This document shows positions 1,158 to 22,846 of a DNA stretch of 34,901 nt, piece after piece. Made by a program: the position numbers and the translations under genes. The stretch lies in the NCBI RefSeq assembly GCF_004010195.1, contig NW_025214105.1, forward strand, positions 1 to 34,901, in the 5' to 3' direction. The first letter of the stretch is position 1. Every line of letters starts with the position of its first letter. The notes beneath the pieces are model-generated. The model did not search any database, was not told the DNA's origin, and was given only the letters and a program-made list of their open reading frames with translations. This DNA comes from Chiloscyllium plagiosum. Taxonomy: Eukaryota.

Positions 1158-1164
1158 TATAAAT
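1158..1164 (+). promoter_or_regulatory. Candidate TATA box of the GPR139-like gene
   Basis: TATAAAT about 90 nt upstream of the ATG at 1252. Positional inference only. Confidence 0.4.
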
Positions 1165-1251: not shown

Positions 1252-1315
1252 ATGGAATTATTTCTTAGTGTCAGGAAAATATACTGCATGATTCTTGCTC
1301 TCGTTGGTGTCCCTG
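1252..1315 (+). CDS. gpr139-like: Coding exon 1 of a GPR139-like GPCR (short N-terminus and first half of TM1: MELFLSVRKIYCMILALVGVP + G)
   Basis: Strong Kozak context (aatATGG), in-frame TAA at 1234-1236, and consensus donor G|GTAAGT at 1315/1316 in phase 1. The peptide ends G-V-P and completes TM1 G-V-P-V-N when joined to the phase-1 acceptor at 21890/21891. Confidence 0.8.
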
Positions 1316-1591
1316 GTAAGTCATAAAGACTTGAAAATTTAGAAAAGTTGGTTATGAACTGCTGTCTGCTTTGACTGTGTCACTGTCACAGTTACTCACT
1401 GACCTAGATAAAACATCAGGGAAATATATTGTATAATCAAATGTCCTGAATTAATATTGTTATTTTAATTCCATTACAGTACCTCAAACTAAATATTTTT
1501 GTAACTCAGAGGTTTCAAAATGTATCAGGTCACTGCAGTTACGAGAATATTGTGAATCAGTCATCAGCACATTGAGGGGGTGTCAGGCAAA

Positions 1592-1710
1592 GTGGACTTT
1601 CTGACGTGCAATGGTAATGTTCGTGCCTTTGAGTCAGGAGACCTAGGTTCAGGTTCCATCCATTTCAAATGTGGATAACAGCATCAATGAACAGACAGAT
1701 TAAGAACAAA
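1592..1710 (+). mobile_element. Short tRNA-derived SINE-like fragment, decayed
   Basis: A-box-like gtgcaatggtaatgt and B-box-like ctaggttcaggttcc with tRNA-like spacing. Confidence 0.45.
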
Positions 1711-2009
1711 TGTAATTACTGAGGGTAGTTGGTACTTAGTGCATAGCACTGTGGAATTGTTTCGAATGTGAATCATTATTTGGCTTGATACCTATAACCA
1801 CAGTGATTATGTACGAGTGGGAATATCAGCCAGGGTGGGACTGCGCTGAATCTGACTCACTAATTGAAGCAGAATTCATTGGCTGTTTGCTTTGTTAATA
1901 CTCAAGGAAACTGATTTATCCATTCACAGTATTATCATTGTCTGAACGTAATTCGTAGGACGGAGAATAATATATATTTTTCTCTGTTGGTTGAAGAAAT
2001 TTGTTAACA

Positions 2010-2214
2010 GATCCTAAATATGAATTGGACAACTGAAAGCACTGAGCTTTTTTGCGTGCATTGGATAAGTATTGAGAATAGGGAACAATATCCTGCCAAA
2101 AATGATGTTACTGTCTCATGTACTACCAAGTCTATCTTTATATCATCGCAGTGTGCCCGTGATAATTTAATTCCGCTGTGCTCATTGGATTTCAGTCTTT
2201 CTCTATTTCCCAAC
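2010..2214 (-). repeat. Right arm of the ~200-bp imperfect inverted repeat (partner 823-1030)
   Basis: The reverse complement reads agactgaaatccaatgagcacagcggaattaaattatcacgggcacactgcgatgat..., matching agattgaattgctaacttaacacagtggaattaaattatccctggcacactgtgattgat... at 841 onward. Confidence 0.9.
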
Positions 2215-2371
2215 AAAAACGCGCTAACAGAAACAAATTGTAACTAGTTACCGACAGCTGAAAAGGAGGCTATTTTTTTCTACCATTTTCCAACCCTTTG
2301 GATAATGGCTCAGGTTTACACAAAGCAGACAGTAAGGGTGAAGATGGTTAGTTTTAAAACTAATTAATCGC

Positions 2372-2640
2372 ATTGGCAAAGTGGTGATTTCTCTGGACTA
2401 GTGATTCAAAGGGTCAGGCAGCTTTCTTGGGATGCTGCTTGAATTCGGAAAACAATAGCTGGTGGTATCGAAATTAAAATTTCATCTTGTGAAAGGTGAT
2501 TATAAGACTATAATTGATTGTAGGAAAAGAAAATCTAATTAATTGCTTTCTTGGAATCAGGGAGATCTGCTGACTTTGTCTCGTCTTTACTACATGTAAT
2601 TTCCAAACCACCCTGACGTGTTTGGCTCTGAAGTAGTCAT
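2372..2640 (+). mobile_element. Decayed tRNA-headed SINE-like interspersed repeat
   Basis: gtggtgatttctctggactagtgattca...gctggtgg...ggagatctgc...ctacatgtaatttccaaacc. A related copy lies in reverse at ~19760-19990. Confidence 0.5.
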
Positions 2641-4394
2641 ATAGGTCGCTGTGACGGTAATGAGGAGCAAGTTCAAAAGAACTGATCTTGCAGCACGACC
2701 CCAGGAATCAACTCCACCAACATTGTTCTCGTAAACTGTAGCCTGGACTGTTGGGATAAGTTAGTACGACTGATCTTGTGCTTGTACATTGTTTCAAACG
2801 TTGGCATAGCCTTTAGAAGAGAGGAGTTAAACGTGTGTCATCAGGATAACTTACAGTTAATGAGAGGTTTTGATCTTTATGACCAAAACGGCTGTAAAAC
2901 TGCAGAAAATGTTGGCTTTAAACATCTATGTCTGACTTCACTACCCATGCGCAATTAAAAACCTCTTGTCAACTTGACGAAAATGGTCAGAACATTTAAG
3001 CTCAGTGTGGTAATGCAGACATTTAAATTGGGTATAGCTTTTCTGGTTGCCTCGATCGGTTAACTATATTCGTCCTTATTTATGGGTAATGCAGATTATT
3101 CTCTTGGCGTCCTATTCAAAACTTTTTATTCCCATCTGCCTCAGCATCTATGTAAATAGCTTGAAACGTTTCATGTCGATGTACACAGTTCTTTATACTG
3201 TTAAACTGGTCTCTTCAACTGCAGACTGTCTCTGTTAAATGATGTTTTCCGAAGGTGAAATAAACGTCGGAACTCCAATGAAATAAAAGATAGGCTTTTG
3301 CCTGAGCAAACGAGGTATAGATGGGGATGGCAACAGATGACTCTAACCTGTTGCCAATAAACGGGGCTCTTCCAGGTTATTTGTCAATACAGAACAAGTC
3401 AACATCAGTGATGTATTTTGAAAGCTCAGAGACGTTGTTCCTACTAGTTGCCATGGCTCTCCACGTCGTAATTTATTTTTGCTTCACAGTTCCACGTCAG
3501 AGTCAGAAGAGGGAAGGCATAGCCTGTGCTGGCAGTATTCAAAGCATTTTAGAATTTTGAGGCACAAGAAACATTCACATTGTTTTCAGTCTTTTCAGTT
3601 AAGTATAGCTAAAGTATTTGCTGACAGAAATACTTCTTAATCTTATATTCATCAGGGCATTGCGCAAGAATCAAACTGAAGAAATTCTACTTGACTCATA
3701 ATCCCTAACTGAGCATATCTTGCAGGTTATGCACAATTGAGGATCCCAGTGTTATGCATTGAGAAATCATCACAAGTACATTCGAAGTAAATGGTTTTAT
3801 ACATTAAGTACCCTGAAAACCTACAATAACTACTTTTCATTTCATGATCTTTCAATTCAAATGAATGAATGTTACACTGCGGTTATTGAATTGCACATTA
3901 TGGGATTGAGTAATGTTTGACTGACTGATAATTATCACTGATTTGGATGTAACCTGTCCAGATTTCTGTTCTGCTCTCGGTGGTGCACCTCACTTCAAAA
4001 GGAACATGAGTTTCAAGAAATGGAGGTCAGTCGAGAACTTTAAATTATCATTTTATTAAATTGTGCATAATGAAATAGATCGTTTCGTTAGGAGACAAAG
4101 CGCTTGAATATGTGAAGTATTTAGCAACTGGTGATCAAGGCAATTTAATATTGCAGTTATTCAGAATGATGTTGAATTTTAAGCATTGGAATTAACCTTT
4201 AAGGCAATTTCTGACACTATACTCTTTCATGTGAACACCTCCCCATCTCTATTCTTGCAACCTAGTCATCATGACATTCTACTTGTTTATAAATCATGTC
4301 CTTAGCTATGTTGACCTTAAGTACATTTTTGTTTCTTTCGAAGCAATTCATAGCAAGTATATGTTTCTGGTAAGATCACCATCTATTGCACTTT

Positions 4395-4600
4395 CAAAAT
4401 AGTCCTTGAGAATGTGGTGGTCAGCTGCCAGGTGTGAACGGTTGCAAGGTGGATTGCCTTAAGAAAGAAATTGTCAGGATTTTATCCCAGAGACAGTGAA
4501 GGACAAAGAGACAGGCTCCGATATCCAAAGTGGTGTTGACTTTTTCAATGGTGTCAGACGAGCAGACAGCCAGGAAACTGGAAAGTATTTCATGAGTTGC
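4395..4600 (-). mobile_element. Decayed LINE (CR1/L2 clade) 3' fragment
   Basis: ccttgagaatgtggtggtcagctgcc...ggattttatcccagagacagtgaagga resembles the copy at ~29505-29850. Confidence 0.4.
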
Positions 4601-5064
4601 GGAGTATAGACGTGTTTCGGGGAGTAAGGAAGTGAGTTAAATGCCACAGAATTCCTAACTCCTAGGCTTTAGCTATTGCGTTGATATATTTTAAGATTAA
4701 CGTTGTTCAGTTGACGCAAGTTGTGGAAAGTTCCACCTTCTCCACCTAATGCAGTCACAGATTTATTGTGTTGATCTCACATTTATTAATTTTAGAGAGA
4801 CATTTTAGAGAGACGTTAAATACATTTTCTGTGCTAACACTATCAAAAGCACTCACGATTTTACAAACTTCTTTAGGTTCTCCTTGCCTTCTTGGAGGCG
4901 AAACAAAAGCCGTAAACTGTCTGGTCAATATCAATCAGTTCAAAATTCGTCCTTGTCGTGCATTTGAAACGTAAAATACTGCTCATGTGGAGGAAAGACT
5001 ACACTTGAATACTGTTAAGGAGCAAATAGGCTAAGCTACAGACCTCAGCCCGTATTTGACCGGT

Positions 5065-8000
5065 GAGTCAGCACGATCAGAGCATTCAGTGAGTGATGTT
5101 CGTGAGAATCATTAAGGGATGCCACGCTGTCAGAGCATCAGGACTGATGGGGTGCTGCACTTCAGAGATCAGTGTAGAGAGATGTTTGTTCGTACTCAGT
5201 ACTGAGGGAGAGCCGTTGACTCAGACGGTAAACATCAAGCGAGTGCTGCACTGTCAGATAGTCAGTGCTGAGACAGTACTGCAAAGCCAGAGAGTAAGTA
5301 CTGAGGGGGCGCTGCTATAGCGGGCCTAAAAATGTGCTGCGTATTCAGATTTGTTTAGGACTGAAAGTGTCTCACTGCAAGTGTCATCACTGAAGCAGTG
5401 CTGCACTGTCAGAGGGCCACTACTGAGGAACTGCTTCACTGTCATAGAGTCGGTACTGCAGCAATGCTGCACTGACAGACGGTCAGTTCTGAGGGACAGT
5501 TGTTTTTTTTTCAGAACGTACTTAATAAGGAAGACCCAGAGGATCAATACTCAGGGCGTACTGCACAGTCAGACGCTTAGTACTAAAAGAGTGACAGAAA
5601 GTCACACTGTCAGAGTGTCAATTCAAAAGTTCCACACTGTAAGGGTTTGAAGAGAATGTCAGCTGCACTCTCAGAGTTTCAGCACTGAGGGACTGCTGCA
5701 CTGTCGGTGACAATGCTGAGGGAGTGTTGCACTGCCAGAAGTTCAGTAGAAAGTATATGTATGCTTCACGGCTAAATATTCAGCACTGATGCTGTGCGGC
5801 GTTCTCAGAATGGAAGTACTGAAGGAAACTGGGCTGTCAGAGGTCAGTACAGAGGGATTGGTACACGGTGAGATGATACATAGTAATAGAGTAACAGAGA
5901 ATCCCATTCTCAGAGGATCAGTAATAAAGCTGTGCTGCATTGTCAGAGGGATAGCTGAAATGTTGTGATGCACAGCGAGAGGATCAATACCGGGGCACAG
6001 TTGCAGTGCCGAGGATCAGCACTGAAGGAGTGCTACACGGTCAGATGCTGAGTAAAAGGAGTGTGGGTGATGGTCTAACAGACAAAGGTTCAATTCTAAA
6101 GAAGGGCAGTACGGTCGCAGGGTCTTCAGAGAGGTTGTGCTGTTCTGTCAGTGCTTCAGAAGGTATGCTGCAGTGACTGAGGAAATTACAGAGGTAGTGC
6201 TACACTGTCGGGGGGTCGGTTCTTGGAATTTGCTGCACTGCCAGAGTGCCACCACGGAAGGGCATCTAGAGCGATAGTACCGGGCAAGTGATGAATTATC
6301 GTAATTTCAGAACTCAGTGATTCAGAAACTTTCTCATAATCACGGTACTGAGGGAAGTGATGAACTATAAGAGGGTTCGGAGAGACTGTGAGTTGCACTG
6401 AGAGGATAGTAATCAGGATTCGCCACTCTATCTGATTGTCAGTACAATGGGAGTGCTGCAACGCCAGAATGCTCATACGAAGGAAGCACGGCACTGGCAG
6501 AGAGTCAGCGCTGAGTGTTGCACTGCTGGGGGAATGCATTAAAGCAGTGTTACCCTGTCAAGCGATCAGTACTGAGGGACTGCCGCTCTGTCGGAGAGAC
6601 AGGAGAGAGGGAATGCACTGTTGGTAAGTCAGCATTGAGGCAGTACAGCATTTTCAGTGTCCGGACAGAGGGAATTCTGCCCTGCCAAAACGACAGTTCA
6701 GCGTGAGAGCACTGTCATTACTCAGGGAGGATCATTATTGAGGTAGTGCCAATCTGTCAAGAGGTCATTACGGAAGATATCCTGCAATGTCGGAGGTTTA
6801 GTAATGAGGCAGTCTTTTCTGTGAAAGAGTCAGTAGTGAGCGAGAGCTGCATTTTCTGAGTTTCGTTACTACGGGAGAGTGCCTCATGTTAAAAAGGCAG
6901 TAACAAGGGAATGCTCTATCAGAGGGTTAGGAGAGAATGTGCGTAGCTGCCGCGTGCATGTTATAAGAGTACTGACTGTATCTGAATATCAGTGCTTGGA
7001 GATTGCTGAAGTGCCAGAATGCCGTTACTAAGGAAACGTTGCACTGTCAGAGAGTCTGTATGAGTGCTGCACTGAGGGAAAGTACTAAAGTAGCGTCACT
7101 CTGTCGGAGGAACAGTACTGAGGGAGTTCCAGTCTCTGCAAGAGTCAGGAGAGAGCGAGTGATACACTTTTGGTGAGTCCACACTGAGGCAATGCTGCAT
7201 TTCCAAGTGTCAGGACGGAGGGGATACTGCCTTGCCAGAAAGACAGTATAATGCAAGATACTGTCTTTACTCTGGGGTGTTGTATTTTCAGAAAGTCATT
7301 GCTGAGGGAGTACCACTCTGTCAGGGGTCAGTAGTGAGGGAGATCTGCACTGTCAGAGGGTCAGTGCAGAGGGAGGGCTGCATTGCCAGACAGTGAGTAT
7401 TGAGTGACTACTGCACAATCAGAGTCAATGTTGATAGAGTGCCGCACAATCAAAGGGTCAGTATTGTTTCACAATTAGAGAGCCAGCACTGAGGCTTTTC
7501 GACACTCTCATAACGTAAGTACTGAAGGAACGCTGTGCTGTCAGAGGATCAGGGCTGAAAGACTGTTACGCGTTCAGATCATACTCACCAACAGAGTGAC
7601 AGAGTATCTGACTCTCAGAAGATTAGTACCGAGGCTGTGCCTCACTTTCAGAGGGTCAGCTGAAACACTGTGCTGCACAGCCAGAGGCTCAGGACCGAGA
7701 GAAAGCTGCACTGCAGAGGATCAATACTGAAGGAGTGCTGCACCGTCAGATGCTTATTACGAAGACAGTCAGTGACAGTCTGCCTACCAGCTGGTCAGTT
7801 CTAAGGTTGTGTCGCACTGTCAGAGGGTCTTCAGAGAGGCTCTGCTGTTCTGTTCGTAAGTCATAACTACTGGTTAATTTAATGCACTAACAGCGGGAAA
7901 GTTTGGAGGGAGTGCTGCACTTCTGGAGGGACGATGCATTATCAGAGTTTCAGTCGAGATAGCGCTTGAACGTCAGCGGATCAGTAATGAGAGAGTGCCA

Positions 8001-11000
8001 CACTGTCAGAGGGTCAGAAGAGAGTTTGTCCTGCACTGTTGGTGAGTTAGCAAAGGCACTCAGAGATCCGCAGCTGTCAGAATTTGCACTGGGAATGGTT
8101 CCATATTGACAGTGCTGCACTGTCAGAAGGTCAGTAGATTTTCAGGAGCGCAGTTCTGCGATGTCAGTGTATGTCATAACTTTGCACTACTCCATCTTAG
8201 ACTCAGTACTGCGACGCAGTTGCAATGCCAGAGAGCCGGTAATGAGAGAGTGCTTCACTGTCACAGAGGCAGTGCTGAACTGTCGGAGAGTCAGCACTGA
8301 GGAAAAGATGCACTGCCAGAGGAAAAATACAAAGTTAGCGCTGCTCTGTCAGAGGGTAGGGAGTAATGGAAATCGCATTTTCAGAGGTTCAGTAGGAATT
8401 GTCTTTTGCATTTTTACAGAATCAGGACTGAGGCAATGCTTCACTATCAGAGATTCATAACTGAGAGTGTTGCACGATCAAAAGATCAGTGATGTGGAAA
8501 GTTTGCACTGTCAGAGAGACAGAGAGTGGTTGTGTTGCACTGTCGGTGGTTGGGGTGTGGGGTGGGGGGGGTCAGTACCGTGGGTGCCGCACTCTCCTGA
8601 GTGTAAATACTGAAGGAGTTCTGCACTGACAGGTCAATACTGGTGGAGTCCAGCACTGTCAGTTGGTCAGTTCTGAAGAAGCGCTGCACTTGTCCGAGGA
8701 CAATAGTTGAGACTGCCCCTCTGGGTCGGAGATTCACTATTACGGGAGTGCTGCTTGGTCAGATTTTTTTCGGGCTGAGAGGACAGAGCGTATTGTCAGA
8801 ATGTATTTAATAAAGGAGCGCCACTTTATCAGAAGATAAGTCCAGAAAGAGTGCTGCGGGTCAGATGTTTAATACTGGGAGAGACAGATTGTCTCACTTT
8901 GACAGGATTAGAAGAAAGTTAGCAAGATTTGTAGCACTGTCAGAGTTTCCATACTGAAGGAATACTGCAGTCAGATGGTCACTTCCTAGGGAGCGCCGCA
9001 TTGTCAGACGGTCAGTACTGAGTGAGTGCTGCACTGTCAGAGGGTCAGTACTGAGGGAATTCCGCACTGTCAGACAGACAGTACTGAGGGAGTGCTGTAC
9101 TGTCAGAGGGTCCGTACTGAGGGAATGCTGCACTGTCGAAGGATCAGTACGAGGGAGTGCTGTACTGTCTTAGGGTCATTACTGAGGGAATGCTGCAATG
9201 TCAGAAGTGCAGTACTGAGGGACTGCTACACAGTCAGATGATTCGCACTAAGAGAGAGACATAGGATCCCAATCTGAGAGGGTCAGTACTATGGTTGTGC
9301 CACACTGTCAGGGGGATAGCTGAAACGATGTGCTGCACAGGCTGAGGCTCAGTACCTAGCGAAGGCTAGGTACCACAGAGTATCACTACGGAAGGAATGC
9401 TACACGGGCAGATATATATCACGAAGACATTGAGTTACAGTGTAACTGCCAGCAACCTCTCCTATTTTGATTTACAGCAGTTCTTTCAATGTTTACGAAG
9501 GAAGTACTATACTGTCAGAGGATCAGAGACTGTGATTTGCTGCGTTTGCAATAGAGGTGAGCCACTCGTCTCATTCTCGGTACTGTTGCAATCGCCCAGA
9601 GATCCAGTACTAAGGGAATACTGTCAGTGGGTCAATGCTGACTGCTGCACTCTCAGCGGCTTCAAAACTGAGGGAGGGACGCACTGTCAGAAGGTCAGTC
9701 GAGTCTCTGCTGAACTGTTAGAGAGTCAGATTGGAGGGAGAACTGCACTGTCAGTACTGAAGTAATGCTGCACGGTCAACTGGTTAATACTGAAAGTGTG
9801 AAAGCGTCTCACTGTCAGAGGGGAACGTGAGAGGGTCTGTCGCATTGTCAAAGTTCAGCAATGAGCCTCTGCTGCACTGTCAGAGTGTATGTAATAAGGT
9901 TGCGCTATCTGAGGCTCAGTGCTAGGATGGTACTGAAAGCTAATACTGACGGAACTGCTGCATGTCAGACAGTTAATACAGAGAGAGTGCTGCAATATCA
10001 GAGGGCAAATAGTACGTGATCGCTGCTCTATCAGAAGTATTAGTCCTGATGAAGTTCTCCATTTGAGAGGATGAGGAGAGAGTACTGCACTATCGTGAGT
10101 CACACTGTGACAGCGGCACTAACAGATTGTTAGCATTGACGCAAAGCTCCACGCAAAGTATATTGCCTATGCTGCACAGTTAACGAATCAGCATGGAGGC
10201 AGTGTTTGACTGTTTGAGATTCTTAACTGAGGGAGTCCTGCAATGTCCGAGGGTCAATCCCGAGGCAGTTCGAGCACTGTCAGAGAGTCAGTAGAGGATG
10301 TATACTGCACGGGTAAAGAATTTCCAGTGAAGAAGCGCAGCACTGTCAGTGTATTAGTACTGAGGTAGTGCTGCATTGTCACAGTGTGTGGAACGAGAGA
10401 AAGCCACTTCATCTGATTCTCAGTACTACGGAATGTTGCAATGCCAGAAAGCCAGTATTGAGGGAACGCTGCACTATCACATAGTCAGTATTGAGGGAAT
10501 ACTGCACTGTCAGAGGGTCAGTCTGAGGGAGTGTTGCATTGTCAGCCTTCCTGGGAACTAATACTAAAGAAACACTGTCAGAGTGTCAGTGCAGAGAGAA
10601 TGCTGCACGTTCAGAACGACAATTTTGAGTGAGTGCTGCACTTTCAGTAATGATAGAGAGCAGAGAGAAAGTATTCAAAGGTTTCTGGCATCGCAGCACT
10701 CCCGTAGCATTGTTTCTGATGGAGTGGTACTCCCTTATTATATACACTTTGACAATTCAGCACTCCCTCAGTAATGATGCAACTGACAGTGTTGCAATTC
10801 TTCACTACACATTCTCTACTGACTTTCTGACAGTGCAGGGATTTCTTCAGTACTGACCCTCGCTCAGTGCAGCACTCCCTTGGTTAAGAATCTCTGATAG
10901 TGCAGCCCTGCCTCCGTGCTCATGTGGTAACAGTACAGAACTGACCCTTTCGGTGTGGGGCTCCCTTAAAATTAATCCTTCTGATCAATCGTCGATCACT

Positions 11001-11250
11001 TAATAGCTTGTCTGATGCTGTACCATTCCTTCTGTACTGACTGAAGTCCAGAGTTCCTTCAGTACTGGCTTTCTGACATTGCAGCACTGCCCCAGTACTG
11101 ACTGCGGGTGTTTCATTGTCAGAGGGTTAGTACTGAGGGAGTGTTGCACTGTGAGAGGGTCTGCACAGTGAGAATTCTGCATTGTCAGAGCTCCATTATT
11201 GAGCGATCGTTGCACCATCGGAGGGTCGGTACTGAAGAATTGCTATGCTG
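5065..11250 (+). repeat. Degenerate tandem satellite/minisatellite with a 33-bp unit, consensus GTCAGTACTGAGGGAGTGCTGCACTGTCAGAGG
   Basis: Near-perfect head-to-tail units at ~9011-9240 and recognisable decayed units throughout. The 11-codon periodicity shows in spurious ORFs (QHSLSTDPLTV repeats). The block ~10685-11096 is in the opposite orientation. Confidence 0.93.
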
Positions 11251-11350
11251 TTGGAGCTACCTTCTTTTGCTTGAAACATTAAAAAAACAAAATTGACCAC
11301 TCTCTGATCAGGTCAATGTTAGTATTCTTATGACAGTATTTCAAGGAAAG
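11225..11350 (+). mobile_element. DeuSINE (SacSINE1/AmnSINE1-like) core remnant continuing directly from the last satellite unit
   Basis: ctgttggagctaccttcttttgcttgaaacattaaa...tcaggtcaatgttagtattcttatgacagtatttcaaggaa resembles the remembered DeuSINE text ctgtcggaggtgccgtctttcggatgagacgttaaa...tcaggtggacgtaaaagatcccatggcactatttcgaagaa. Confidence 0.55.
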
Positions 11351-14189
11351 TAATGTAACATTTGTGCATTGGCTCTTATTTGGTTTTCAGCGGCATCCAG
11401 CAACATTTGTCTGCCCTTATGACATTTCCTCAAATGATGCTCTTGGTCACTGAAGAACTCTGTATGTCTACAGATTTATGTAGGAAATCACAGAACAGAA
11501 TGTATCCTCATTCCATATGGAATGAAGGTGTGAAGGACTGCTTTAGGGAAGAATGCTGAAAATGATAACAAAATATTGATAATGCACAAGCAAGAACGAA
11601 GTAGGATAATAACAGGGAATAATGCTTAATATACCAGTTGAGATCACCATCATCACAGGTAGGCAACTACTCGGTTATTAATGTTCCTCCACAGAGACAG
11701 AGAGAAGAATCAAACCCACCTTTTACCTCTGTATTCATAACGAATCAAAGTGAAAACTTTAAAAAGAGCCTCATAATTGGCCCCAATCGTTCCAAAATAC
11801 ACTTCATCAATAACCGATCTCAGACTACAAGTAATCTGTTCTCGATACTCGTTAGAGGTTTCAACAAAAGACCTAGTTTTTTTTTTCATTGTACAATAAC
11901 TTTAGTAGAGCAAAGTTAAACAACACAGTAATCTAATTGGTGCATGCTTTAAACACAAAACCTTTGTTTTCAGCCTTTTTTACACAAATTAGAGACATAC
12001 AAAAAACAGTTAAATAAAATAAAATAGCAAAACTGTTAAAATTACTGAAATGTTTTTCCACATGTGTTATTCCACAGACATAAAAGATGGCTTTTTGGTT
12101 GTTTTTCTGAAGATATCTATCAAGATCATCATTTACGTTCTTTTAGATAAAAGCAATAACACTTATGATTTAGTTTTGCATTTTCTCAGCATCCAGGAAC
12201 TGGCAAAGGAGGTTAGGTAGAGGCTTTCACTTTAACATTGCAATATCGCTGCCAGATTGATTTTTAAAAGAAATGTAGTCGAATAATGCAATTCAAACTC
12301 TGACCACCCCCTGCCAGACTGAGCGTCTGTCGCAAGCGTTCTCACATACCACTTAATATTTTCCATTTGCTTGAAAATAGTGTTTCTGCTCGACTGGCTG
12401 GAGAAAATTCCCATGTGCCTTCCTCTTTAAACGCCGATTTATTTTATTTATTTAAACACAATGCTGAAGCGACTGCAGAACCTTCTGATCAGTGAACCAT
12501 CTAAAATTTATCCAGGCCTGGGTTCGCGAATAAATAAAGGTTTGTTTGAACTGTTTTCTTTTTTTTAAATGCAAGTTGTTACCCATAGACCAAACAGCAT
12601 CTTTAGCTTACAATTCTAACTTCACAGTTCTGAACCAACATTGATTTGTAAAGCAAAAACAAAACAATGGCAACCACGGTGGGGTTGTGGGGGTGAGGCA
12701 TGAGAAAGACGTGGTTGGTGGCGAGGTTTACATGAGGCTGAACATGACGGAAGCCTGGGGCGAGTTTGGGAAGGCAGGAATATATAACATGGCCACCTCT
12801 AATGTTTGAAGATTTTAAATGTGAATTTAAATATCTATTTCAATACTTAAATGTAAAAATGAGTTCAATGGGTGTACTTTAATTGCAATTATGGGCAGGT
12901 GGCTTCAGATTCAAAATATTTAGAAGGGAAAGGAAAATTATTTCGGTTAGAAGACAGATCAATGCTAACCTTCTCTTTTTTACAATTACAGTGTCAGCCT
13001 TTTTGTATTGACGACAGTTGTTGATAATTTTCCTCAGTTTCTGATCAGACTGAGAAGTCGATGACATAAATTTTCTTCAGCATTCTCATAATTTTACAAA
13101 ATGTTTTGAGCAAACCAATGAACACACCACAGTAGGAAGCCTATTGTCAATTAACCCTGTTCAGAGAGTTGAACATACTCAACCACCCAGTAATTGTAGA
13201 CATCCACAAAATTTTCTCAGGGTACAGAGTTAGCAAACACTTTGCACTTTCCATTAAAGAGTGAAAATAAAATACTTATTTTCTTCCGCTGGAAATATCA
13301 CAGGATCTGTGTATTCAATGCCAACAGCAGATTCCATTTAAAAAGAAATAGCACAGGTTTTTCAGCAGTAAAACCCATTGAAACAGAGTTGAAATACAAT
13401 ATTTAATGACTAGGGCGGTTTCTTTTGACGGTATAGAAAGTTTTCCAACTATCAATAGACACACTCATAGCTATTCAAGCACAATTGTTTTCTTCACAAT
13501 TTCAAAAAGATAACATTTTTGTTCTCATTTATGCCTTAAAATCTACCTCTCTGAGTATCTCTATTTTCCAATTTTCCATCTTTAAATTAACTTTATTTCA
13601 AAGCACCGGTATTTGGTGCTTTTCACTTCCTGGTTGCTGCTGATGATATTACCTCAATGTAACTAGTTGCCATTCCACTTGATAACAGCACACACTGAAC
13701 TTGGTAAAACGTTATGCTAACTTGAAGGTGGGAGACGGGAAATTCATGCCACAGTAGATCACCGCACCCTTCTGAGCTGCGTTTTGCAAATTCATTCTTT
13801 GTTGGATCGACATCATGACATAACATTCCTTTAAACCGAGGATGACAAGATGGGTTTTGGAGACTTCTTTAGGAGGAAGGTTTGGAGTAGAATCCTAGGA
13901 CGGCTCTTAATCGTGCTACTTGACAAGACTCAAGCTGACTCAAGCTGAGCGTGTTCTCGCTCTTTCAGATGTCAAAGGGTGGACCTTTGCCCCAAATCTG
14001 CCTTTAACTGAAACATTTTCTTTTCTGAGGAAAGGACAACATTGCACAGTAATTTTTCAACACTACCCTCAGTGATCTAGCTATTCACTGTTTACGTGAG
14101 TTTGTCGAAAAAAAATGAAAGTCTTCATGACCATTTACACAGAAAGTAATCGCTAATTAAAATACTAATCAATTACAAACTATCAGCTA

Positions 14190-14452
14190 AGATTAGATTA
14201 CATTACAGCGTGGAAACAGGCCCTTTGGCCCAATAAATCCACACCAACCCATACCCCTAACCTAACACTACAGGCAATTTAGCATGGCCAATTCACCTTA
14301 CCTGCACATCTTTGAACTGTGGGAGGAAACCGGAGCAAATCCACGCAAAGAACGTGCAAATTCCACACAGTTAGTCGCCTGAGGCCGGAATTGAACCCGG
14401 GTCTCCGGCGCTGTGAGGCAGCAGTGCGAACCACTGTGCCACTGTGCCGCCC
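14190..14452 (-). mobile_element. HE1-family SINE, relatively young, internally shortened
   Basis: The reverse strand begins GGGCGGCACAGTGGCACAGTGG (A box)...GGTTCAATTCC (B box), followed by the HE1 body and a short (TAATC)n tail at 14190-14200. Confidence 0.9.
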
Positions 14453-14596
14453 AACGGGTCTAACTGGTCTAAGAGACTGACGAGAAATTCCTAATTTAAA
14501 ACGACTCCTTCTGGGAAAGGTATTGAAGTTTAAAACTGCAGTTGGATCCATAAGTGGCCAGATGACTTTTAACTTCAACATGTCTGAAGCTCGGCT

Positions 14597-14643
14597 CCTA
14601 ATACATGTTCATTGTCTTTTGTTTTCCATTTGGGCCTCCTCAG
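14597..14643 (+). promoter_or_regulatory. Probable 3' splice acceptor of the muscarinic coding exon
   Basis: Branch-like cctaat (14597-14602), pyrimidine tract ttcattgtcttttgttttccattt...cctcct and CAG ending at 14643, 26 nt upstream of ATG 14670. Muscarinic genes typically have the coding region in one exon with an acceptor just upstream. Confidence 0.55.
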
Positions 14644-14669
14644 TGCTAACTGTACATCAGGGTGAACTG

Positions 14670-16070
14670 ATGGAAAAACCAACAGAACCGAATGGATCTC
14701 TCAGTACCTCGGAAGAGTTTCTTGACACTCAAAGACGGAGTTCTTACAAAATGGGCGAAGTAATCTTCATTGCGATTGTAACGGGATCTCTGAGTGTGGT
14801 AACCCTCGTGGGGAACGTTCTCGTTATTATTTCCATCAAAATAAACAGGCATTTGCAAACTATTAACAACTACTTCATTTTCAGCTTAGCCTGCGCTGAT
14901 GTCACTGTTGGAGTAACCATGAATCTATTCACCATTTACAGTCTCCTTGGCTACTGGCCTCTGGGCCCGGTGGTGTGCGATTTATGGCTTGCTGTCGATT
15001 ACGTTGTCAGCAATGCCTCTTCCATGAATCTTCTTATCATCAGCTTTGACCGCTACTTCTGTGTGACCAAACCCCTTAGCTACCCCGTAAGGAGGACACC
15101 AAAGGTTGCAGGCATGATGATCGCAGCCGTTTGGGTGGTGTCATTTATTGTATGGGCTCCTGCCATTCTGTTCTGGCAGTTCATCGTAGGGCAGAGAACA
15201 GTCAGTGACGGAGAATGTTATATACAGTTCTTCTCCAATCCTGCCGTCACTTTCGGCACTTCAGTAGCTGCCTTCTATCTGCCAGTCACCATCATGGTGA
15301 TTTTATATGTATATATATCACGGGCTAGCAAAAGTCGAATGAACGTGGATAAAAACGAGTCTGGATCTAATAAGGAACCAATTTCCCCCAACCTAGAGGT
15401 GGGTAAGATACTGAAATCGAATCCGAGCAACATATCTAATGCTTCTGTTAGGCTGCCAGAAGTGAAAATGCCAAAAGGTACAATAATCCATGGAAGAATA
15501 ATTGATCATTTCGATGAAAGAGAGGAGGTGTGCTTGGGTGAGTCAACTTCTTCCATTATGATTCCACCAAATAAGAAGTTGGTAGGGTCTATCAGTGATA
15601 ATGGAGATGTCTGTACTGTGATGGATAACTGCAAAGTTTCCTATACAAGGATGATTAATCAACGACAAAACAGTTATGACCATGGAACCACACCTGGAAT
15701 CGTTGCAGATCTTCGAAGCAATAACGGGAAGGATTGGAAGATCACAGAAACTCAAAAAACAAGTAAAATAATTCATAATACTGCTCAGAAGAGAAAGGTC
15801 AGTGTTACGAGAGAAATGAAAGTGACTAGAACCATTCTGGCTATTCTTCTGGCATTTATCATCACTTGGAGTCCATACAATGTCATGGTGCTCATTAGCA
15901 CGTTCTGTCCCAGCTGTATTCCAAACACAGTTTGGAATATCGGATATTGGGTATTTTACATCAATAGCACTGTCAATCCAGCCTGTTACGCACTCTGTAA
16001 TGCTACTTTCAAGAAAACCTTCAAACATCTTCTTTTGTGCCAGTTCAAGAGCAGTGGTGCAAAAAGTTAA
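14670..16070 (+). CDS. chrm2: Muscarinic acetylcholine receptor M2-like (divergent paralogue), single coding exon, 466 aa
   Basis: Unmistakable motifs: [99 protein letters not shown] (M2-type). The ORF-track start at 14523 is a non-ATG codon. Met50 of that ORF (14670) gives a normal-length N-terminus with an NGS sequon. Confidence 0.93.
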
Positions 16071-16133
16071 AGAAAATAAGCCACAAGCAAAATATCATGA
16101 GCACTCCATGTAATGTGATGATGATGACTTTCA

Positions 16134-16139
16134 AATAAA
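16134..16139 (+). terminator. Candidate polyadenylation signal of the chrm2-like gene
   Basis: AATAAA 64 nt after the stop codon, followed by a GT-rich tract (~16157-16176). Confidence 0.45.
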
Positions 16140-16296
16140 TATCTAAAACTACGGGCATGTGATGTGTTTATTGTGTCAGAAAAGACTCAGGTAGACATAT
16201 TACACGCCATTTTTGAAGCACACTTTAGTTTTACCCAATTAATTCGTAATGTCTCTTATCAATGATGGTTTGCTGACGAGACTGGGAGATGTTGTG

Positions 16297-16927
16297 GGAG
16301 CATTTCAGAACTGATAGCCAGACTACTGCGACCACTAGGACTTATAACAGCACACAAACCAACAGCCACCCTCAGACAACCACTCACCAGAACGAAGGAC
16401 CCGATACCCAGCATGAGCAAAACTAATGTAGTGTACAAAATCCCATGCAAGGACTGCACAAAACACTATATAGGACAAACAGGAAGACAGCTAACGATCC
16501 GCATCCATGAACATCAACTAGCCACGAAACGCCACGACCAGCTATCCTTAGTAGCCACACACGCAGACGACAAGCAACATGAATTCGACTGGGACAACAC
16601 TACCATTATAGGGCAAGCCAAACAAAGAACAGCCAGGGAATTCCTAGAAGCATGGCACTCATCCACAAACTCCATCAACAAACACATCGACCTTGACCCA
16701 ACATACCGGCCACTACAGCGGACAGCTGAAACTGACAACCGGAAGCGGCAGGGACAGGCCACTATAAATGCCGGAGGAAACAACACAGAAGGGCTTCACA
16801 GGAGGCTCCCAAGCACTGAGGATGTTACCTAGACAGGGGACGAAACGTTTGCAACAAAAATTTCCAGCTCGGCGAACAGAACTACAACAACGAGCACCCG
16901 AGCTACAAATCTTCACCCAAACTTTGA
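16297..16927 (+). mobile_element. 5'-truncated Penelope-like retroelement: GIY-YIG endonuclease region plus 3' pLTR
   Basis: Uninterrupted frame with NVVYKIPCKDCTKHYIGQTGR...RIHEH...H...HEFDW...REFLEAWH...SIN (GIY-YIG), stop at 16830-16832. Candidate target-site duplication ACTGGGAG(A/G)TG at 16281-16291 and 16928-16938. Confidence 0.9.
16813..16852 (+). ncRNA. Minimal type-I hammerhead ribozyme motif in the Penelope pLTR
   Basis: GCA-CTGAGGA-t-GTTACCT agac AGGGGAC-GAAA-CGTT-TGC: CUGANGA and GAAA core boxes, a stem II with one mismatch, short palindromic helix III (AACGTT), and GCA/TGC stem I. Confidence 0.75.
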
Positions 16928-19759
16928 ACTGGGAGGTGAATTGTCCAATGTCAAATTTGCACAAAAAATTCGAATGGCTGGTGAGATTTGTTCATTATTA
17001 ATGAAAAATTAAATGATCTTTGTGGTGAAGGAAAGCAGAAGTTCAATATTTTCAACATTATCCAAGAAAAAATAGTTGAAAAAAACTGAATTCTCGTATA
17101 AATTCAGTATGTTCGGGTGGACAGCACTTAGCATTGTTGGACAAGTAATGTTTATATGGGGTTATGGACAAATGCACTCGATTAGAACCACTTTTTATTT
17201 GGCTGAGGAAGACTCGAAGTCGGTGCCAATGCTTTCCAAATTATTAAAAATAAATAAATGCGTCACCACTAAATAAATAATAGTGTAAACTAATTTAACC
17301 ATATTTATTTAAATAACACAATGCCTATCGTGTTTCCAGAGCACCTGACCTCTTTTACCGGGTCTTATCATGTCCATTTAATTTATTAGATACTAGCTTA
17401 TTCATTGTTGTGAAAATAAAGAAAACGATTCCTGCTTTTAAGCCACAGATGTTTCAGCTCAAGATCTAGCAATTCACTGTCATGTACCCAGGCTGATATC
17501 TAAGCAACAAACTTATGCATTTCATGTGTTTAAGATCTGTGTCACCATTGAACCAACATTAATAAGAACATAGTCTTGACTACAGTGGACACTGGATAAT
17601 TGGAGCTCACTGCCTTTGCGGATTTGAATCAGGTGGGATTTGACTACTTCGGTCTTTTCCACCTACATCTGCATGGTTGGAGAGCTTGTCATCCTCACTC
17701 TCCATCCCCACTTATTTTCTGTGCCACTCGGCTCAGTGCCATCCCTCAGATTTGCAGCAGGAGCACCAGGTCAGAGGCTAATCTTTTAGTCTTTCCCAAG
17801 TATCCTTTCCATTCCAGCGGGTTTCTGCAAACTGAAAAGACCAAATTGAAACAGTGCGAATTGAGTACAATATACAATGCACTGAGTAGATTTTAATCTC
17901 AAATCGGCTTTCTTAGTTACAATGGATTCATTGCAAAAGTTTACTCTGTTCAGGTGCCCGACCTTCTGGGAAGGATTGGAACCATGTCGCAGGAAATGAC
18001 CTTGGCCTTCCAGCATGTCAAATGGTTGAAATTTCCGCAGCTACAATGTGCTGAATTTCCAAGTGAAAGTGTTAACTTCTCAACTGAGCCGAAATTTCCT
18101 AATATTGGTGCACATATTTCAAGCTAACCTGACATGCTCTCTCGTCGACTCAACACCTGGTTCACTGGAGAAGTGAAATTCAGTATCAGAAAACATCAAT
18201 GTGCCAAATTATGTTGCAGACTCGTTATTATATTCCTCATTAACCCATTGGGTTGACAATAACAATTGCATCTGTCTTGGGCGTTTAGTGGAGTTCTAAA
18301 TCACTAAGCAGAAACAATTACTAAACATTGCTCAGCAACATTGGACGATAGGAAAAATGACATTGCTACCATATAGGGTGAAGAGGGTCATGAAAGGGAT
18401 TTTGCAGTTGTAGGCACTTTTCGTTGGATTCTGTTGGGGCGGGGAGATGAAGGCAAACTGTGCAAAAGAGTACAATCTAGGTCGCAAATACAAGAATTTT
18501 TATTCCAACCGTTAACAACACCAGCGGCAAAAGATGGAAATGGCAAAAATATCAGGGCATTCATATCTGTCTCACCAAGAAGAATCATGTGCGATTGCAA
18601 ATGGGTTCCACAGCCACGTTGGAACAGACCATAGCTAACTCTTCATGCACAGGAAACAGCCAAAGTAGGAAAACCAACAAAGGGAGGCGGTGGGCGGAGG
18701 AACTTTCAGCGTAAACACTCAGGGTAAATAATTTTCAAGGTAAACACAGTAAAATGCTGGTGAAAAGTATAGAAAAGGTAATATCAGTCTTAACTAATAT
18801 TCCATATTATGTAAAATAAGATGAGGTTCGACCAGTACCATCATTTCATATGTTAATGAGATTCATTTTTTCCATCCCTGGTTTTCTCCCTTGTTTTTAC
18901 CAGGTAAATTAAATAGATCTTCTGCTGTTTTTCCCACTAATCCAGATCCAATAATACCAATGGACCCATCTGTCTTGTTTATCCCAGCAATGTCCCATGC
19001 AATCTGATTCCCTGTTTCCCATTGCCTCTTCTATTATTTCCAACAGTCTTCCTGCTATACAAACAAACGAGATACAATCTCTGGCCTTTCATGTCCTTCC
19101 TTCACACCAGCCATGGTCCCAAAGAAATCAATGCAGTTTAAGTACTGACTTCTTTTTATTTCTTCCATGTGAGCAACTATATTCCCTGCTCAAATTGTTG
19201 TCTCCTCTCCACTGAAGACATCAAATGCAGATTGAAACATTATTTTGGGCCCTTCTATTCAGTCCTCAGTCTTTATCCTTAGCTTCCTATTGCTTTGACG
19301 TTTTACTTCTCGGACTACGCTCTCTACCCTCAGTCTCAGATATTATTATATATTTCAGCTCAAAGGAAACATGCCATTTTATATTTTGTTGATTTTATAA
19401 CTTTAAAACTCGCAAAACTCTGTTCACAAACTTCAGGTCATAATTACTGCTTTCATTCTCGTGGGCGGTATATTCATTTATTGAAGGATGGTTATGCACA
19501 GCCACAGAGATAGAGGGAATGTTTTTTTTTCTGTTCTTGCGGTGGGGATTGCTTGATGAGTTACCTGCCTGTGAGATCGTCCAGACTCCTGGAGTCCGCT
19601 TTTATGATGAATCTGGGGAAAGCTGGGTGTGATTTCTGAAATGGTGTCAGTTGTAAATATCATATTTGACTGGCTGACTGGTTTGCTAATGCAGAAAAAT
19701 GCTAATAATGTAGTTTCAATTCCTGGAGATTATAATGAGGACTGTTAAGATTCAAGCAC

Positions 19760-19990
19760 GTTAGTGTGGGTCCGGAGTCACACGTAGACCAATCTACGTA
19801 AGGACAGTATTTTCTTTTCCTAAAGACACAAATAAACAATATGGTTTTTTTCAACAACTGACAACAGTTTCATGGTAACCATTAGATTGTTAATTCCATT
19901 TTCTTTTGTAATTGAATTCAAATTAGCCATCTGTGATGAGAGAATGCAAACATAAGTCCTCAGAGCATTACTTGGAATATATGGATCGAC
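19760..19990 (-). mobile_element. Decayed SINE-like repeat, same family as 2372-2640
   Basis: gtgtgggtccggagtcacacgtagacc...gtaaggacag...cagtttcatggtaaccattag...gaattcaaatt. Confidence 0.55.
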
Positions 19991-21890
19991 AGTATTTTTT
20001 GAAGTTGTATTAATGTTTTGAATTGACTTTTTTTTATTTTTAAATTTAGACCTTCACACTGCATTATTACTGGAAGCGTTTTAGTCCTTTCCTCCATTCA
20101 GATAGAGAGAAATTATTGAATTTGTTACTTGATTATTTGCTTACACCCCATTTTAAATTCTCCTGTAATGCAAACACATTGCCTTTTTTTGCTAATCTTT
20201 ACCATTATAAATAATTATAGTGGATTTTAGAGTCTTTTCTTTTGCTAGTTTTCCCATTTGTACTATGTTATTATTTGAGAATGACAGTGTCCATATTCTC
20301 CTCGGGCAAACTTTGTTTGGTAACTTGAGTTGACAGGTTTTTGATCTGATACAATCCTTATTAGGAGACTTCCCTTATTGAGTGTTTGTGCATGGTGGAA
20401 ATGTATTTTGATTGTTAGTTGTGTATTAGTTCCTTAAATGTTAACTATTGCTGGTCTACCATCAGACATTCCATTGCATTTTCCTCATCCACCATCACCA
20501 AATCTTCCCTCTGATCTTCATATTTTATTTTGTTTAGAATTAAGGCCGTGGTTTCTGATTGTAAACTAAATATAACATCATTCATGTCATGGCCACTCTT
20601 TCGTAAACTATACTTTGCAACAAAGTTTTCAGTTGCCCATCCTTTTTTGCATAATGCACAATCTAAAACAATCTACTGCCTGGATGGTTCCCCAATGTGC
20701 AGCTTAGAAATATATTTCACATGCATATGAAAATTTGTCCCACACAAACTATGCTAGTATTAATGAGGGTCACGTGGTTCATATGTCAATTGAAGTTTTC
20801 CACATTTATTGTGTCAACTCCAGTTTCCAAAATGCCATTTACTTCCTCACTCCTGTATTCTACTCTTTAGTGAACACAGCTACACCACCACCATTTTCCA
20901 GCATACTGCCATTTCTGAATACCACTAATTCACTAATTACTATCGGATCATGCTTATGAATTTATATTTAACTTAACAATTGATGAAAATGATTGCAAGT
21001 GTAAGGCACAAATTTCTTAATTCAGTTTTCTTTACCCACTCTATAACCTTTTGCCCTATCTGTTGACATACTTTTCTGATTTTGTTCATTGTATTTCCTG
21101 CTATACTCTGATTATTATTTTACATTTGCCTTGATCTATTATTGTTTCCTCTCGCTTAAACTTATGGAACCATCTAGATGTGCTCCTTTATTCCCCTATT
21201 CAATTACAGGCTTTGTATCTCCCAATTCAGATGACTTGCCTGAAGACTGACTCCAGCACTGCTTAATTGAAACCCATCTCAACAATGCAGCCACATTTTT
21301 CCAGTACTAGTGTGAAATTATCACAAACTACCAATCAGTATTCTCACAGCAACCCTTAAGTCATACATCAATAACTCTAAACTTATTGATCAAATGCTAA
21401 GTTTTACGTAGTTCAATTTTTGCACAAAGGATTGCCTCATTGAAACTTCTTTTTAGTTCTGTGGCAGATCCTCATACTTGCAATGCAAAACCTCTTTATT
21501 AGACTACCCATGTCATTGGTACCTGCAAGGAGAAATACAACTGGATCTTCTCCCTTCAACTGCAATCTCTTATCCAGCAGTAGAACTGCATATGAAAGTA
21601 ATAGATGTGTTGCTGCCTGCATGAGCAGTTGTGCTGATTGAAGACTTAGAATGATCACCAGTTGTATCGACGAAAATGAAAAAATAAGATTTTGTCAGTA
21701 TCACTCATGTACTGAAGAAGATTGATAGTTTTCCTTGGGGAAATTAAATCCAAAGAAATTAGGTTTATCTTGATTCTAGTTTTGTGACGAGATTGTAAAA
21801 TTTTTACCACCAATCAAACCATAAAAAACAAACAAGAAATATTTAATGAGAAATTGCCAAGCATTTCTTTTTTTCTTCTCTCTCTTACAG

Positions 21891-22846
21891 TCAATTTATT
21901 GGTAATTGTCATCCTATCATGGAAGAAGTGTGGCCTCTCCACTTGCACAACTTACTACCTGATGGCTGTGGCAACAGCAGATCTACTGGTCATCTTCTCT
22001 TCTATCATATTGGATCAACTCATTTCCTATTTTTTCCCAGTATCTTTTCTGGAGATCACTCATGTGTGTAATATCATACTTATTCTTATTTACGTAGGTA
22101 CTGAATGTTCTGTCTGGTTTGTTGTCACTTTCTCACTTGATCGATTTGTAGCCATTTGTTGTCAGAAGTTTAAAACAAAGTATTGCACTGGCAAAACTGC
22201 ACTTGTGATTCTATCAATCACATTCATTGTGATTTGTTTAAAAAACATCCCATTTTACTTCATAGTTGAACCCAGAGAGATGATTGATGATGTTCCTTGG
22301 TTTTGTAAGGAAAAGACAAACTACTATACAGATCCTGCATGGGTGGCATTTGATTGGTTTGATACGATTTTCACACTATTGATCCCATACACTTTAATTC
22401 TCTTTGTCAATGTGCTCACAATCAGACACATTTTAATGATCAGATGGGTCCGGCGGCAACTCAGGGGTGCTGTTGGAAACTGCACTGACCAAGAGATTGA
22501 GAGCAGACGGAATTCTGCAATTTTATTCTTCACAATATCAGGCAATTTCATTTTACTTTGGCTTTTATTTGTTATAAACTTCTTATGTTGTACCATTGCA
22601 GGATATATTCCTGAAAATTACAATGCTTCCTTAAACATCTTTGCAGATGTAGGCATCATGCTGGTGGATTTAAGTCGCTGCACACATGCATTTATTTATG
22701 GTGCCACTCAGTCCAAGTTCAGGGAGCAGTTCAAGAGTGCTGTGAAAAATTCATATACATCAATGTCTAATTTTCTTAACTACTGCTGGGAGCCCCATGT
22801 TTCCAGTAACATTCATCCTCATTTAACTAGAGGTTTCCATAGGTAG
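21891..22846 (+). CDS. gpr139-like: Coding exon 2 of a GPR139-like orphan class A GPCR (end of TM1 to C-terminus); spliced product 339 aa
   Basis: Strong acceptor (tttctttttttcttctctctcttacag|, phase 1). Motifs NLLVIVILS.KKCGLS, ATADLLV (D2.50), CSVWFVVTFSLDRFVAICCQK, FILLW and FIYGATQSKFREQF. No stops or frameshifts. Confidence 0.88.

What the first reader, a model, noticed from the sequence alone, without database searches (positions are those of the whole stretch)
1252..22846. Muscarinic receptor gene nested on the same strand inside the ~20.6-kb intron of a GPR139-like gene
Seen: a 64-nt coding exon at 1252-1315 (phase 1, GTAAGT) supplies the missing N-terminus and TM1 half for the phase-1 exon at 21891, giving ...ILALVGVP-V-NLLVIVILS. 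I found no better first exon between 16.9 and 21.9 kb and no alternative GPR139-like second exon between 1.3 and 14.6 kb. Recalled knowledge: vertebrate GPR139 is split by one intron at the equivalent TM1 G-x-P-x|N position. Inference: intron 1316-21890 contains an intact chrm2-like gene in the same orientation. Same-strand nesting of one GPCR in another is uncommon because the inner acceptor and poly(A) signal compete with the host intron.
Basis: partly seen in the sequence, partly recalled or inferred. Interest (0 to 1): 0.8.

Follow-up and report, generated by a model that had tools for sequence, protein, structure and literature searches.

The report
Muscarinic exon borrowing another receptor's promoter
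In a shark, a copied acetylcholine-receptor coding exon sits inside the intron of an unrelated receptor gene and probably has no start of its own but is spliced to the host's first exon, so that one promoter could make either of two different receptors; the layout is real and repeated, but no RNA has yet shown the splice.

Summary
The layout is real. Exon 1 (1252-1315) and exon 2 (21891-22846) join into an open 339-aa GPR139-like frame, an intact chrm2-like ORF lies between them on the same strand, and no other exon 1 or 2 exists in the window. Two colinear paralogues on contig C37 carry the same order and satellite, so a misjoin is unlikely. I doubt it is an independent nested gene. The muscarinic copy is a DNA duplicate of the CHRM2 coding exon whose ancestral splice acceptor is mutated; the next AG (14642-14643) is phase 1 and joins exon 1 in frame (496 aa). 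Of 17 near-full-length copies read, 16 have a same-strand GPR139-like exon 1 upstream; in 12 of 13 non-nested units its own exon 2 is broken or gone. Three copies lack their own ATG. One Hemiscyllium database model already joins such an exon 1 to the muscarinic ORF (1 of 163; a prediction). Best reading (0.6): shared promoter and first exon, alternative last exons. RNA test inconclusive: no reads on either gene. The roughly 25-copy shark CHRM2 expansion was not found in print.

The parts
1158..1164 (+). TATA box of the GPR139-like first exon
   Evidence: conserved in copy A; in copy B a 3.7-kb LINE-like insert separates it from the ATG
1252..1315 (+). GPR139-like coding exon 1 (21 codons + 1 base, first half of TM1), phase-1 donor at 1316
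   Evidence: E=3.7e-20; donor identical in copies A and B
5100..11300 (.). degenerate 33-bp satellite, present at the same place in copies A and B
14189..14453 (.). high-copy short repeat (SINE-like), insertion specific to this copy
14548..16277 (+). block homologous to the parental CHRM2 locus (C19): end of intron, coding exon, start of 3' UTR; further pieces near 13.9-14.1 kb and 17.4-17.6 kb
14632..14633 (+). position of the parental CHRM2 acceptor AG (phase 0), here GG; also GG in copies A, B and C67815
   Evidence: alignment; that this AG is the parental acceptor is inferred from its place after the pyrimidine tract
14642..14643 (+). first AG after the pyrimidine tract: predicted acceptor of the muscarinic exon, phase 1, in frame with exon 1
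   Evidence: database models P0006, P0244, P0014, P0253 join at the equivalent site
14670..16070 (+). chrm2-like ORF, 466 aa, intact
   Evidence: dN/dS 0.15 in the membrane part against copy A
16266..16930 (+). young high-copy retroelement remnant with a faint GIY-YIG match, in the muscarinic 3' flank; absent from copies A and B
   Evidence: E=0.036, below cut-off
17243..17254 (+). ATTAAA/AATAAA pair, candidate poly(A) signal of the muscarinic exon, matched in copy A once the insert is discounted (an unconserved AATAAA also lies at 16134)
   Evidence: use is inferred
21891..22846 (+). GPR139-like exon 2 (rest of TM1 to stop), phase-1 acceptor
   Evidence: candidate AATAAA at 23031 read

Best explanation
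One transcription unit with two alternative last exons. A few kb of the CHRM2 locus (end of the last intron, the single coding exon, 3' flank) was duplicated as DNA into a shark GPR139-like tandem array and multiplied with it. The copies take promoter and first exon from a GPR139-like gene. In this unit and its two sisters the muscarinic exon lies between exon 1 and exon 2. Transcripts from the TATA at 1158 either splice 1315->14644 and end after the muscarinic exon, giving an M2-like receptor (with a 30-residue hydrophobic N-terminal extension if exon 1's ATG is used, or the plain 466-aa protein by leaky scanning), or skip it and splice 1315->21891 to give the 339-aa GPR139-like receptor. The host receptor is the weaker partner and is under relaxed constraint. 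Shown: layout, frames, conservation, selection signatures. Inferred: both splices, the promoter use, the protein products.
For: (1) DNA copy with limited flank: homology of the 17 copies to C19 CHRM2 runs from at most about -3.3 kb to +2.2 kb of the ATG, and no GPR139-like exon lies in 22.3 kb around C19 CHRM2. (2) 16 of 17 near-full-length copies read have a same-strand GPR139-like exon 1 or its remnant upstream (4.5-24.6 kb in the 14 tabulated); the 17th had only about 2 kb of upstream DNA fetched. (3) In 12 of 13 non-nested units that exon 1's own exon 2 is broken or absent, including 7 of the 8 whose muscarinic ORF is open. (4) In 9 of 14 tabulated copies the first AG after the tract is phase 1 and open into the ORF; here the join gives 496 aa with no stop. 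(5) Copy A has ATG->ATA and no Met before TM1, yet an open ORF with membrane-part dN/dS 0.15; its orthologues P0004 and P0244 in two other species have the same Ile and an open frame; a second clade (15.951, 15.998) also lacks the Met; all three have an in-frame exon-1 ATG. (6) P0253 = XP_060706660.1 (Hemiscyllium) has residues 74-116 matching exon 1 (60-69%) joined to the muscarinic ORF at the phase-1 acceptor. (7) The only strong donor conserved in all three copies between 1300 and 14640 is 1316. (8) In copy B a 3.7-kb insert parts TATA from ATG and both downstream coding exons are broken. (9) Exon 2 is still open in the window and copy A (neutral survival 0.0005, substitutions only) but dN/dS is 0.61 against 0.24-0.31 in five other pairs (Fisher p=0.004 and 0.005 against two of them).
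Against: No RNA read covers either exon or junction, so nothing is shown at transcript level. P0253 is 1 of 163 muscarinic-like proteins tested, its first 73 residues match dispersed repeats, so the model is at least partly ab initio; models P0006, P0244 and P0014 use the same acceptor with unrelated first exons, and the window's own model P0242 simply extends to an intronic ATG. A search for short proteins carrying the muscarinic N-terminus found none. Donor retention is not significant in the fair comparison (7 of 7 against 8 of 11, p=0.25), nor is the complementarity of lost ATGs (p=0.45) or their fit with phase-1 acceptors (p=0.23); the copies share descent. In 5 of 14 copies the first AG is not phase 1 and open, so exon 1's ORF would be an out-of-frame upstream ORF. 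Only 3 of the 8 exon-1s ahead of open non-nested muscarinic ORFs keep a strict TATA. Exon 1 shows no measurable protein constraint (dN/dS 0.7-1.25 on 21 codons). Copy B also lacks the 12.2-14.2 kb stretch, which could hold an own promoter. A CTG precedes copy A's ATA, so a non-AUG start is possible.
Confidence: 0.6

Rival explanations
1. Classical nesting: the muscarinic ORF has its own promoter inside the intron, and the host splices 1315->21891 over it in other cells or at other times.
For: The window's copy keeps its own ATG (14670) and an in-frame upstream ATG (14580), as in models P0242 and P0002. 12.2-14.2 kb is conserved with copy A at about 68% and missing in broken copy B. CHRM2 has several promoters (PMC6298421 passage citing Krejci 2004), one of which could lie in the copied flank. 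Exon 2's acceptor is stronger (20 of 21 pyrimidines) than the muscarinic one (16 of 20).
Against: No conserved donor or TATA near the muscarinic exon; 68% is no higher than the intron median of 70%; copy A has no ATG; the acceptor region is kept in all copies; exon 1 persists ahead of 16 of 17 copies.
Confidence: 0.2
2. Takeover: exon 1 now serves only the muscarinic exon, and exon 2 is an orphan in early decay, as in most other units of the cluster. There is then no host transcript and no nesting.
For: Exon 2 of the window and of copy A break 26 and 27 of 146 family-conserved columns, the two highest of 30 paralogues; dN/dS 0.61-0.71; exon 2 is broken in copy B; no database protein above 64% identity among the 120 listed of 413; another DNA run has a 2-nt deletion at 22797 in the tail.
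Against: Both frames are still open after dS about 0.25 (neutral survival 0.0005); acceptor conserved in all three copies; about ten of the changes are shared by both copies and so predate their split.
Confidence: 0.14
3. Artefact: a misjoin at the satellite, or a closer first exon that was missed.
For: The window is a small unplaced contig (39,052 b with a 1,606-N gap just after the window); no contig of run X1 spans the stretch.
Against: Two colinear paralogues with the satellite in the same place, one without any gap; run X1 covers 30 of 30 bins; three Hemiscyllium orthologues on one contig; profile scans find no closer exon.
Confidence: 0.04

Closest known systems
Vertebrate CHRM2 (muscarinic M2 receptor)
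   Same: Best solved relative is human M2 (E=2.7e-169); the amine-binding Asp-Tyr of TM3, the W-x-P-Y-N of TM6 and both TM7 tyrosines align unchanged (their roles are recalled). Coding region in one exon. The parent copy is on C19.
   Different: One of about 25 full or broken copies on C37 in a clade with M2-like proteins of other galeomorph sharks (support 100, quick tree). PMC6298421 (abstract and passages) found no non-tetraploidisation duplicate in any vertebrate it analysed; the species list seen names no shark. One-residue deletion in TM2 and Cys->Phe in TM7; parental acceptor lost.
Shark 'probable G-protein coupled receptor 139' family
   Same: Same two-exon build with a phase-1 intron in TM1; at least 125 matches in this genome; 55-64% identity to proteins so named.
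   Different: Intron of 20.6 kb holding a muscarinic exon, against about 1-4.5 kb in the seven intact non-nested class I genes mapped; relaxed selection. Only weakly similar to human GPR139 (E=4.8e-9), so the name is a label, not orthology.
Host/nested gene pairs (PMC11694760)
   Same: A coding unit wholly inside a long first intron, same strand.
   Different: Here the inner unit probably shares promoter and first exon with the host, which is not a host/nested pair in that paper's sense; I saw passages only.
Promoter and exon capture by duplicated coding exons; alternative last exons (recalled: retrogenes spliced to host exons; clustered protocadherins and UGT1A as the mirror case of many first exons and shared last exons)
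   Same: A promoter-less copy is expressed through a neighbour's first exon; choice between acceptors and poly(A) sites decides the product.
   Different: The copy is DNA-made, not a retrocopy (it keeps intron sequence); both last exons encode whole receptors of unrelated GPCR families; the unit was then multiplied as an array. These comparisons are from memory, not from a call.

Membership tests
Nested gene pair (independent inner gene) | inner coding sequence wholly within a host intron | tested here: met
   at DNA level, in 3 of 17 units
Nested gene pair (independent inner gene) | host transcript splices across the inner gene | tested here: inconclusive
   no RNA read on either gene; the lay (20 kb cap) could not hold both exons
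Nested gene pair (independent inner gene) | inner gene has its own promoter and shares no exon | tested here: inconclusive
   no conserved own donor or TATA found; no start-site data
Shared first exon with alternative last exons | compatible donor and acceptor, open frame for both products | tested here: met
   496 aa and 339 aa, no internal stop
Shared first exon with alternative last exons | both junctions seen in RNA | tested here: inconclusive
   empty; one database model of the exon1-muscarinic join in another genus, support unknown
Muscarinic M2 subfamily | groups with CHRM2, not CHRM4 or M1/3/5 | tested here: met
   (quick tree)
Muscarinic M2 subfamily | orthosteric residues kept | tested here: inconclusive
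   TM3 Asp-Tyr, TM6 Trp/Tyr/Asn and TM7 Tyr kept; TM7 Cys->Phe and a TM2 deletion
Muscarinic M2 subfamily | binds acetylcholine, couples to Gi/o | not testable with these tools
   needs expression and assay
Retrocopy | no parental intron sequence, spliced 5' end | tested here: not met
   parental intron aligned upstream of the acceptor, up to about -3.3 kb in some copies
Shark GPR139-like family | two coding exons, phase-1 intron in TM1, family-level similarity | tested here: met
GPR139 orthologue (human GPR139) | one-to-one orthology by tree and synteny | not tested

The most novel reading that the evidence does not exclude
Across galeomorph sharks a whole array of new muscarinic receptors is driven by captured GPR139-like first exons; in units like this one a single promoter switches by last-exon choice between two unrelated GPCRs, and the first half of the host's TM1 has been reused as a signal-peptide-like leader (peak hydropathy 2.7 over 11 residues) that lets some copies drop their own start codon.
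Probability: 0.35. Interest if true: 0.8.

Novelty: new variant of a known kind. Interest (0 to 1): 0.62.

Why it matters
Muscarinic receptors are held to have multiplied only by whole-genome duplication (PMC6298421). A shark array of about 25 CHRM2 copies, at least 9 with open frames on C37, is an exception, and the layout suggests why it was possible: the coding exon escaped its own promoter and took over those of a fast-multiplying receptor family. If the splices are confirmed, it is a natural case of one promoter yielding either of two unrelated receptors, with paralogues caught at different stages (host intact, relaxed, dead) and a one-step RT-PCR test. It also explains why annotation gives these copies invented N-termini.

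Tried and rejected
RNA: no RNA holder was listed for 14700-22846. The one lay (3201-23200; runs X5, X6, X7, X1) read about 2% of X5 and 6% of X6; X5's 1,059 reads fell in 5 of 30 bins, all repeats, X6 gave none, X7 gave depth 1.5 in one exon-2 bin and no listed joint. No verdict either way. Candidate exon 1 at 19467: rejected. My first guess that exon 1 at C37:14746323 spans a 26-kb intron with a muscarinic copy: no such copy there. Donor-retention test: the figure printed (13/13 vs 0/3) used a miscount and a grouping chosen after seeing the data; one search gives 15/15 vs 3/6 (p=0.015) and, with dead units grouped fairly, p=0.25; I rely on neither. Rows dropped: the 14.958/14.895 pair from the dN/dS comparison (14.895 has a frameshift and was read in the wrong frame); the rows for 15.755 and 15.785 (wrong anchor), replaced. 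The careful tree did not finish; the quick tree is cited. Search for short proteins with the muscarinic N-terminus: 0 of 2 candidates. Donor weights are generic recalled frequencies. Literature: GPR139+shark gave 4 papers, none on this by listing; muscarinic+chrm2+elasmobranch 0; GPR139+cartilaginous+expan 0; muscarinic+shark+genome+expansion 3, unrelated by listing; alternative last exon/shared first exon/GPCR 0; searches for the 5' structure of CHRM2 and the GPR139 intron gave nothing usable. The library lacks most subscription journals and I opened no supplements, where shark gene-family tables could list these copies. Earlier scan notes: none relevant. Only 686 kb of the roughly 2.1-Mb cluster was read.
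Full report
Setting. The window is bases 1-34,901 of a small unplaced contig (G000:C100700, 39,052 b, a 1,606-N gap follows) in a 3.56-Gb genome. The nearest named proteins are from bamboo sharks.

Observation. Exon 1 (1252-1315) has an ATG, 21 codons plus one base, a G|GTAAGT donor and a TATA box at 1158. A DNA profile of 20 paralogous first exons finds it at E=3.7e-20 and nothing else in the window. Exon 2 starts after AG 21889-21890, at the place shared by 29 of 30 top paralogues; a profile of 32 second exons finds no other copy or remnant in the window. The join gives 339 aa without a stop. The ORF at 14670-16070 is an intact M2-like receptor. A weak candidate first exon at 19467 failed.

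Not a misjoin. Contig C37 holds two colinear sister units, A (15.35-15.384 Mb, no gap) and B (15.42-15.449 Mb), 70-80% identical, with the same order and the satellite in the same place. Each of the three muscarinic copies has its own Hemiscyllium orthologue, and Rhincodon contributes one sequence at the base of the clade (quick tree), so the triplication predates those genera's split. Another DNA run covers 30 of 30 bins of 3201-23200, though no contig spans it. First-exon and second-exon trees put the three units in matching 'class I' clades (support 0.975 and 1.0), as expected if the two exons are one gene.

The cluster. C37:14.7-16.8 Mb mixes about 25 muscarinic-like copies or fragments with GPR139-like genes. 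I read 686 kb of it. All C37 copies in the tree and the window form one clade (100) with M2-like proteins of Cetorhinus, Scyliorhinus and Mustelus; the slow-evolving parent is on C19. The copies align to the parent's intron and 3' flank from at most about -3.3 kb to +2.2 kb, so they are DNA duplicates of the coding exon, and the parent has no GPR139-like exon within 22.3 kb. Of 17 near-full-length copies, 16 have a same-strand GPR139-like first exon or remnant upstream; the 17th could not be judged. In 13 of them the muscarinic exon follows a 'class II' exon 1, with what is left of its exon 2 in between; that exon 2 is broken or absent in 12 of 13, and in 7 of the 8 units with an open muscarinic frame. 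Only the window, A and B have the muscarinic exon ahead of a full-length exon 2.

The acceptor. The parent has an AG 36 nt before the ATG, after a pyrimidine tract. In the window, A, B and C67815 it reads GG. The next AG (14642-14643) is phase 1, the phase of exon 1's donor, and the join is open: 496 aa, with a hydrophobic leader. Nine of 14 tabulated copies have such a phase-1 first AG. Copy A has lost its ATG and has no Met before TM1, yet it is open, has dN/dS 0.15 in the membrane part, and its orthologues in two other species show the same Ile. A second clade (15.951, 15.998) lacks the Met too. All three have an upstream exon 1 with an in-frame ATG. The only strong donor conserved in window, A and B ahead of the muscarinic exon is exon 1's. 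In B, a 3.7-kb LINE-like insert separates TATA from ATG and both coding exons are broken. A profile-free search with the 15.951 copy then returned XP_060706660.1 of Hemiscyllium, whose residues 74-116 match exon 1 and run directly into the muscarinic ORF at that acceptor.

Against this reading. That model is 1 of 163 tested and begins with repeat-derived residues, so it may be wholly a prediction. No RNA read lay on either gene. Donor retention, ATG complementarity and phase fit are each non-significant when tested fairly (p=0.25, 0.45, 0.23), and the copies are related by descent. Five of 14 copies have an acceptor that would leave exon 1's frame as an upstream ORF. Strict TATA boxes survive in only 3 of 8 relevant first exons. 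The window's copy has its own ATG and could be transcribed from inside the intron.

State of the host. Exon 2 is open in the window and A although a neutral sequence would survive that divergence with probability 0.0005, which argues that it was translated, and exon 1 is the only first exon on offer. But dN/dS is 0.61 against 0.24-0.31 in five other pairs, and these two break the most family-conserved columns, 26 and 27 of 146. The host looks alive but under relaxed constraint, or recently abandoned.

Mechanism. Most likely (0.6): one promoter and first exon, two alternative last exons; the muscarinic exon intercepts splicing and ends the transcript, or is skipped in favour of the stronger exon-2 acceptor. 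Rivals: independent nesting (0.2), full takeover with an orphan exon 2 (0.14), artefact (0.04). How the nested order arose (insertion into the intron, or deletions within the array) cannot be told from these data.

Known or new. Same-strand nesting is common in mammals over all biotypes (PMC11694760, passages). Promoter capture by duplicated exons is a known kind (recalled). PMC6298421 (abstract and passages) reports no local muscarinic duplicate in the vertebrates it analysed. Five searches found no paper on the shark array, its mixing with GPR139-like genes, or a first exon shared by two GPCR families; the single proteins are in databases under automatic names. Verdict: real, a new variant of a known kind, interest 0.62, mechanism awaiting one RT-PCR.

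Noticed in passing
G000:C37:14.7-16.8 Mb (L032-L059, L078-L146): About 25 CHRM2-derived copies or fragments interleaved with GPR139-like genes; M2-like and GPR139-like proteins also share single contigs in Cetorhinus, Stegostoma, Rhincodon and Scyliorhinus torazame (equal contig lengths), so the mixed array may be old.
   Followed up: partly
L139-L142 (C37:14746230-14773201): A first exon is followed by a broken exon 2 and, 26 kb on, by an intact exon 2 with no first exon between: the same skip layout with two GPR139-like last exons.
   Followed up: no
L086 (C37:15424952-15428641): 3.7-kb LINE-like insert between TATA box and ATG of copy B; its Hemiscyllium orthologue P0007 has an open muscarinic frame.
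   Followed up: partly
window 14670-16070: One-residue deletion in TM2 and Cys->Phe in TM7 against human M2, which may change ligand binding; the TM2 deletion is also in several other shark M2-like proteins.
   Followed up: no
L034 (C67815) and L062 (C29968): Two small contigs 93% and 98% identical to the window's muscarinic and exon-1 regions; with raised DNA depth over the ORF in run X1 this points to a fourth, recent copy.
   Followed up: no
window 1224-1250: Short out-of-frame upstream ORF just before exon 1's ATG; an upstream ATG at the like place in copies A and B.
   Followed up: no
window 18902-18904: An AG with a pyrimidine tract conserved in all three copies, directly followed by GT; no function assigned.
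   Followed up: no
window 22797: Run X1 has a 2-nt deletion in the long C-terminal tail of exon 2, which runs about 20 residues past the family's usual end.
   Followed up: no
genome-wide, contig C8 above all: A pattern for GPR139-like first exons matches 224 places, 56 of the 100 listed on C8; the family is very large and I found no paper on it.
   Followed up: no
window 24214-24305, 27915-28156, 33204-33398: Further multi-copy repeats; no gene recognised beyond 22846.
   Followed up: no
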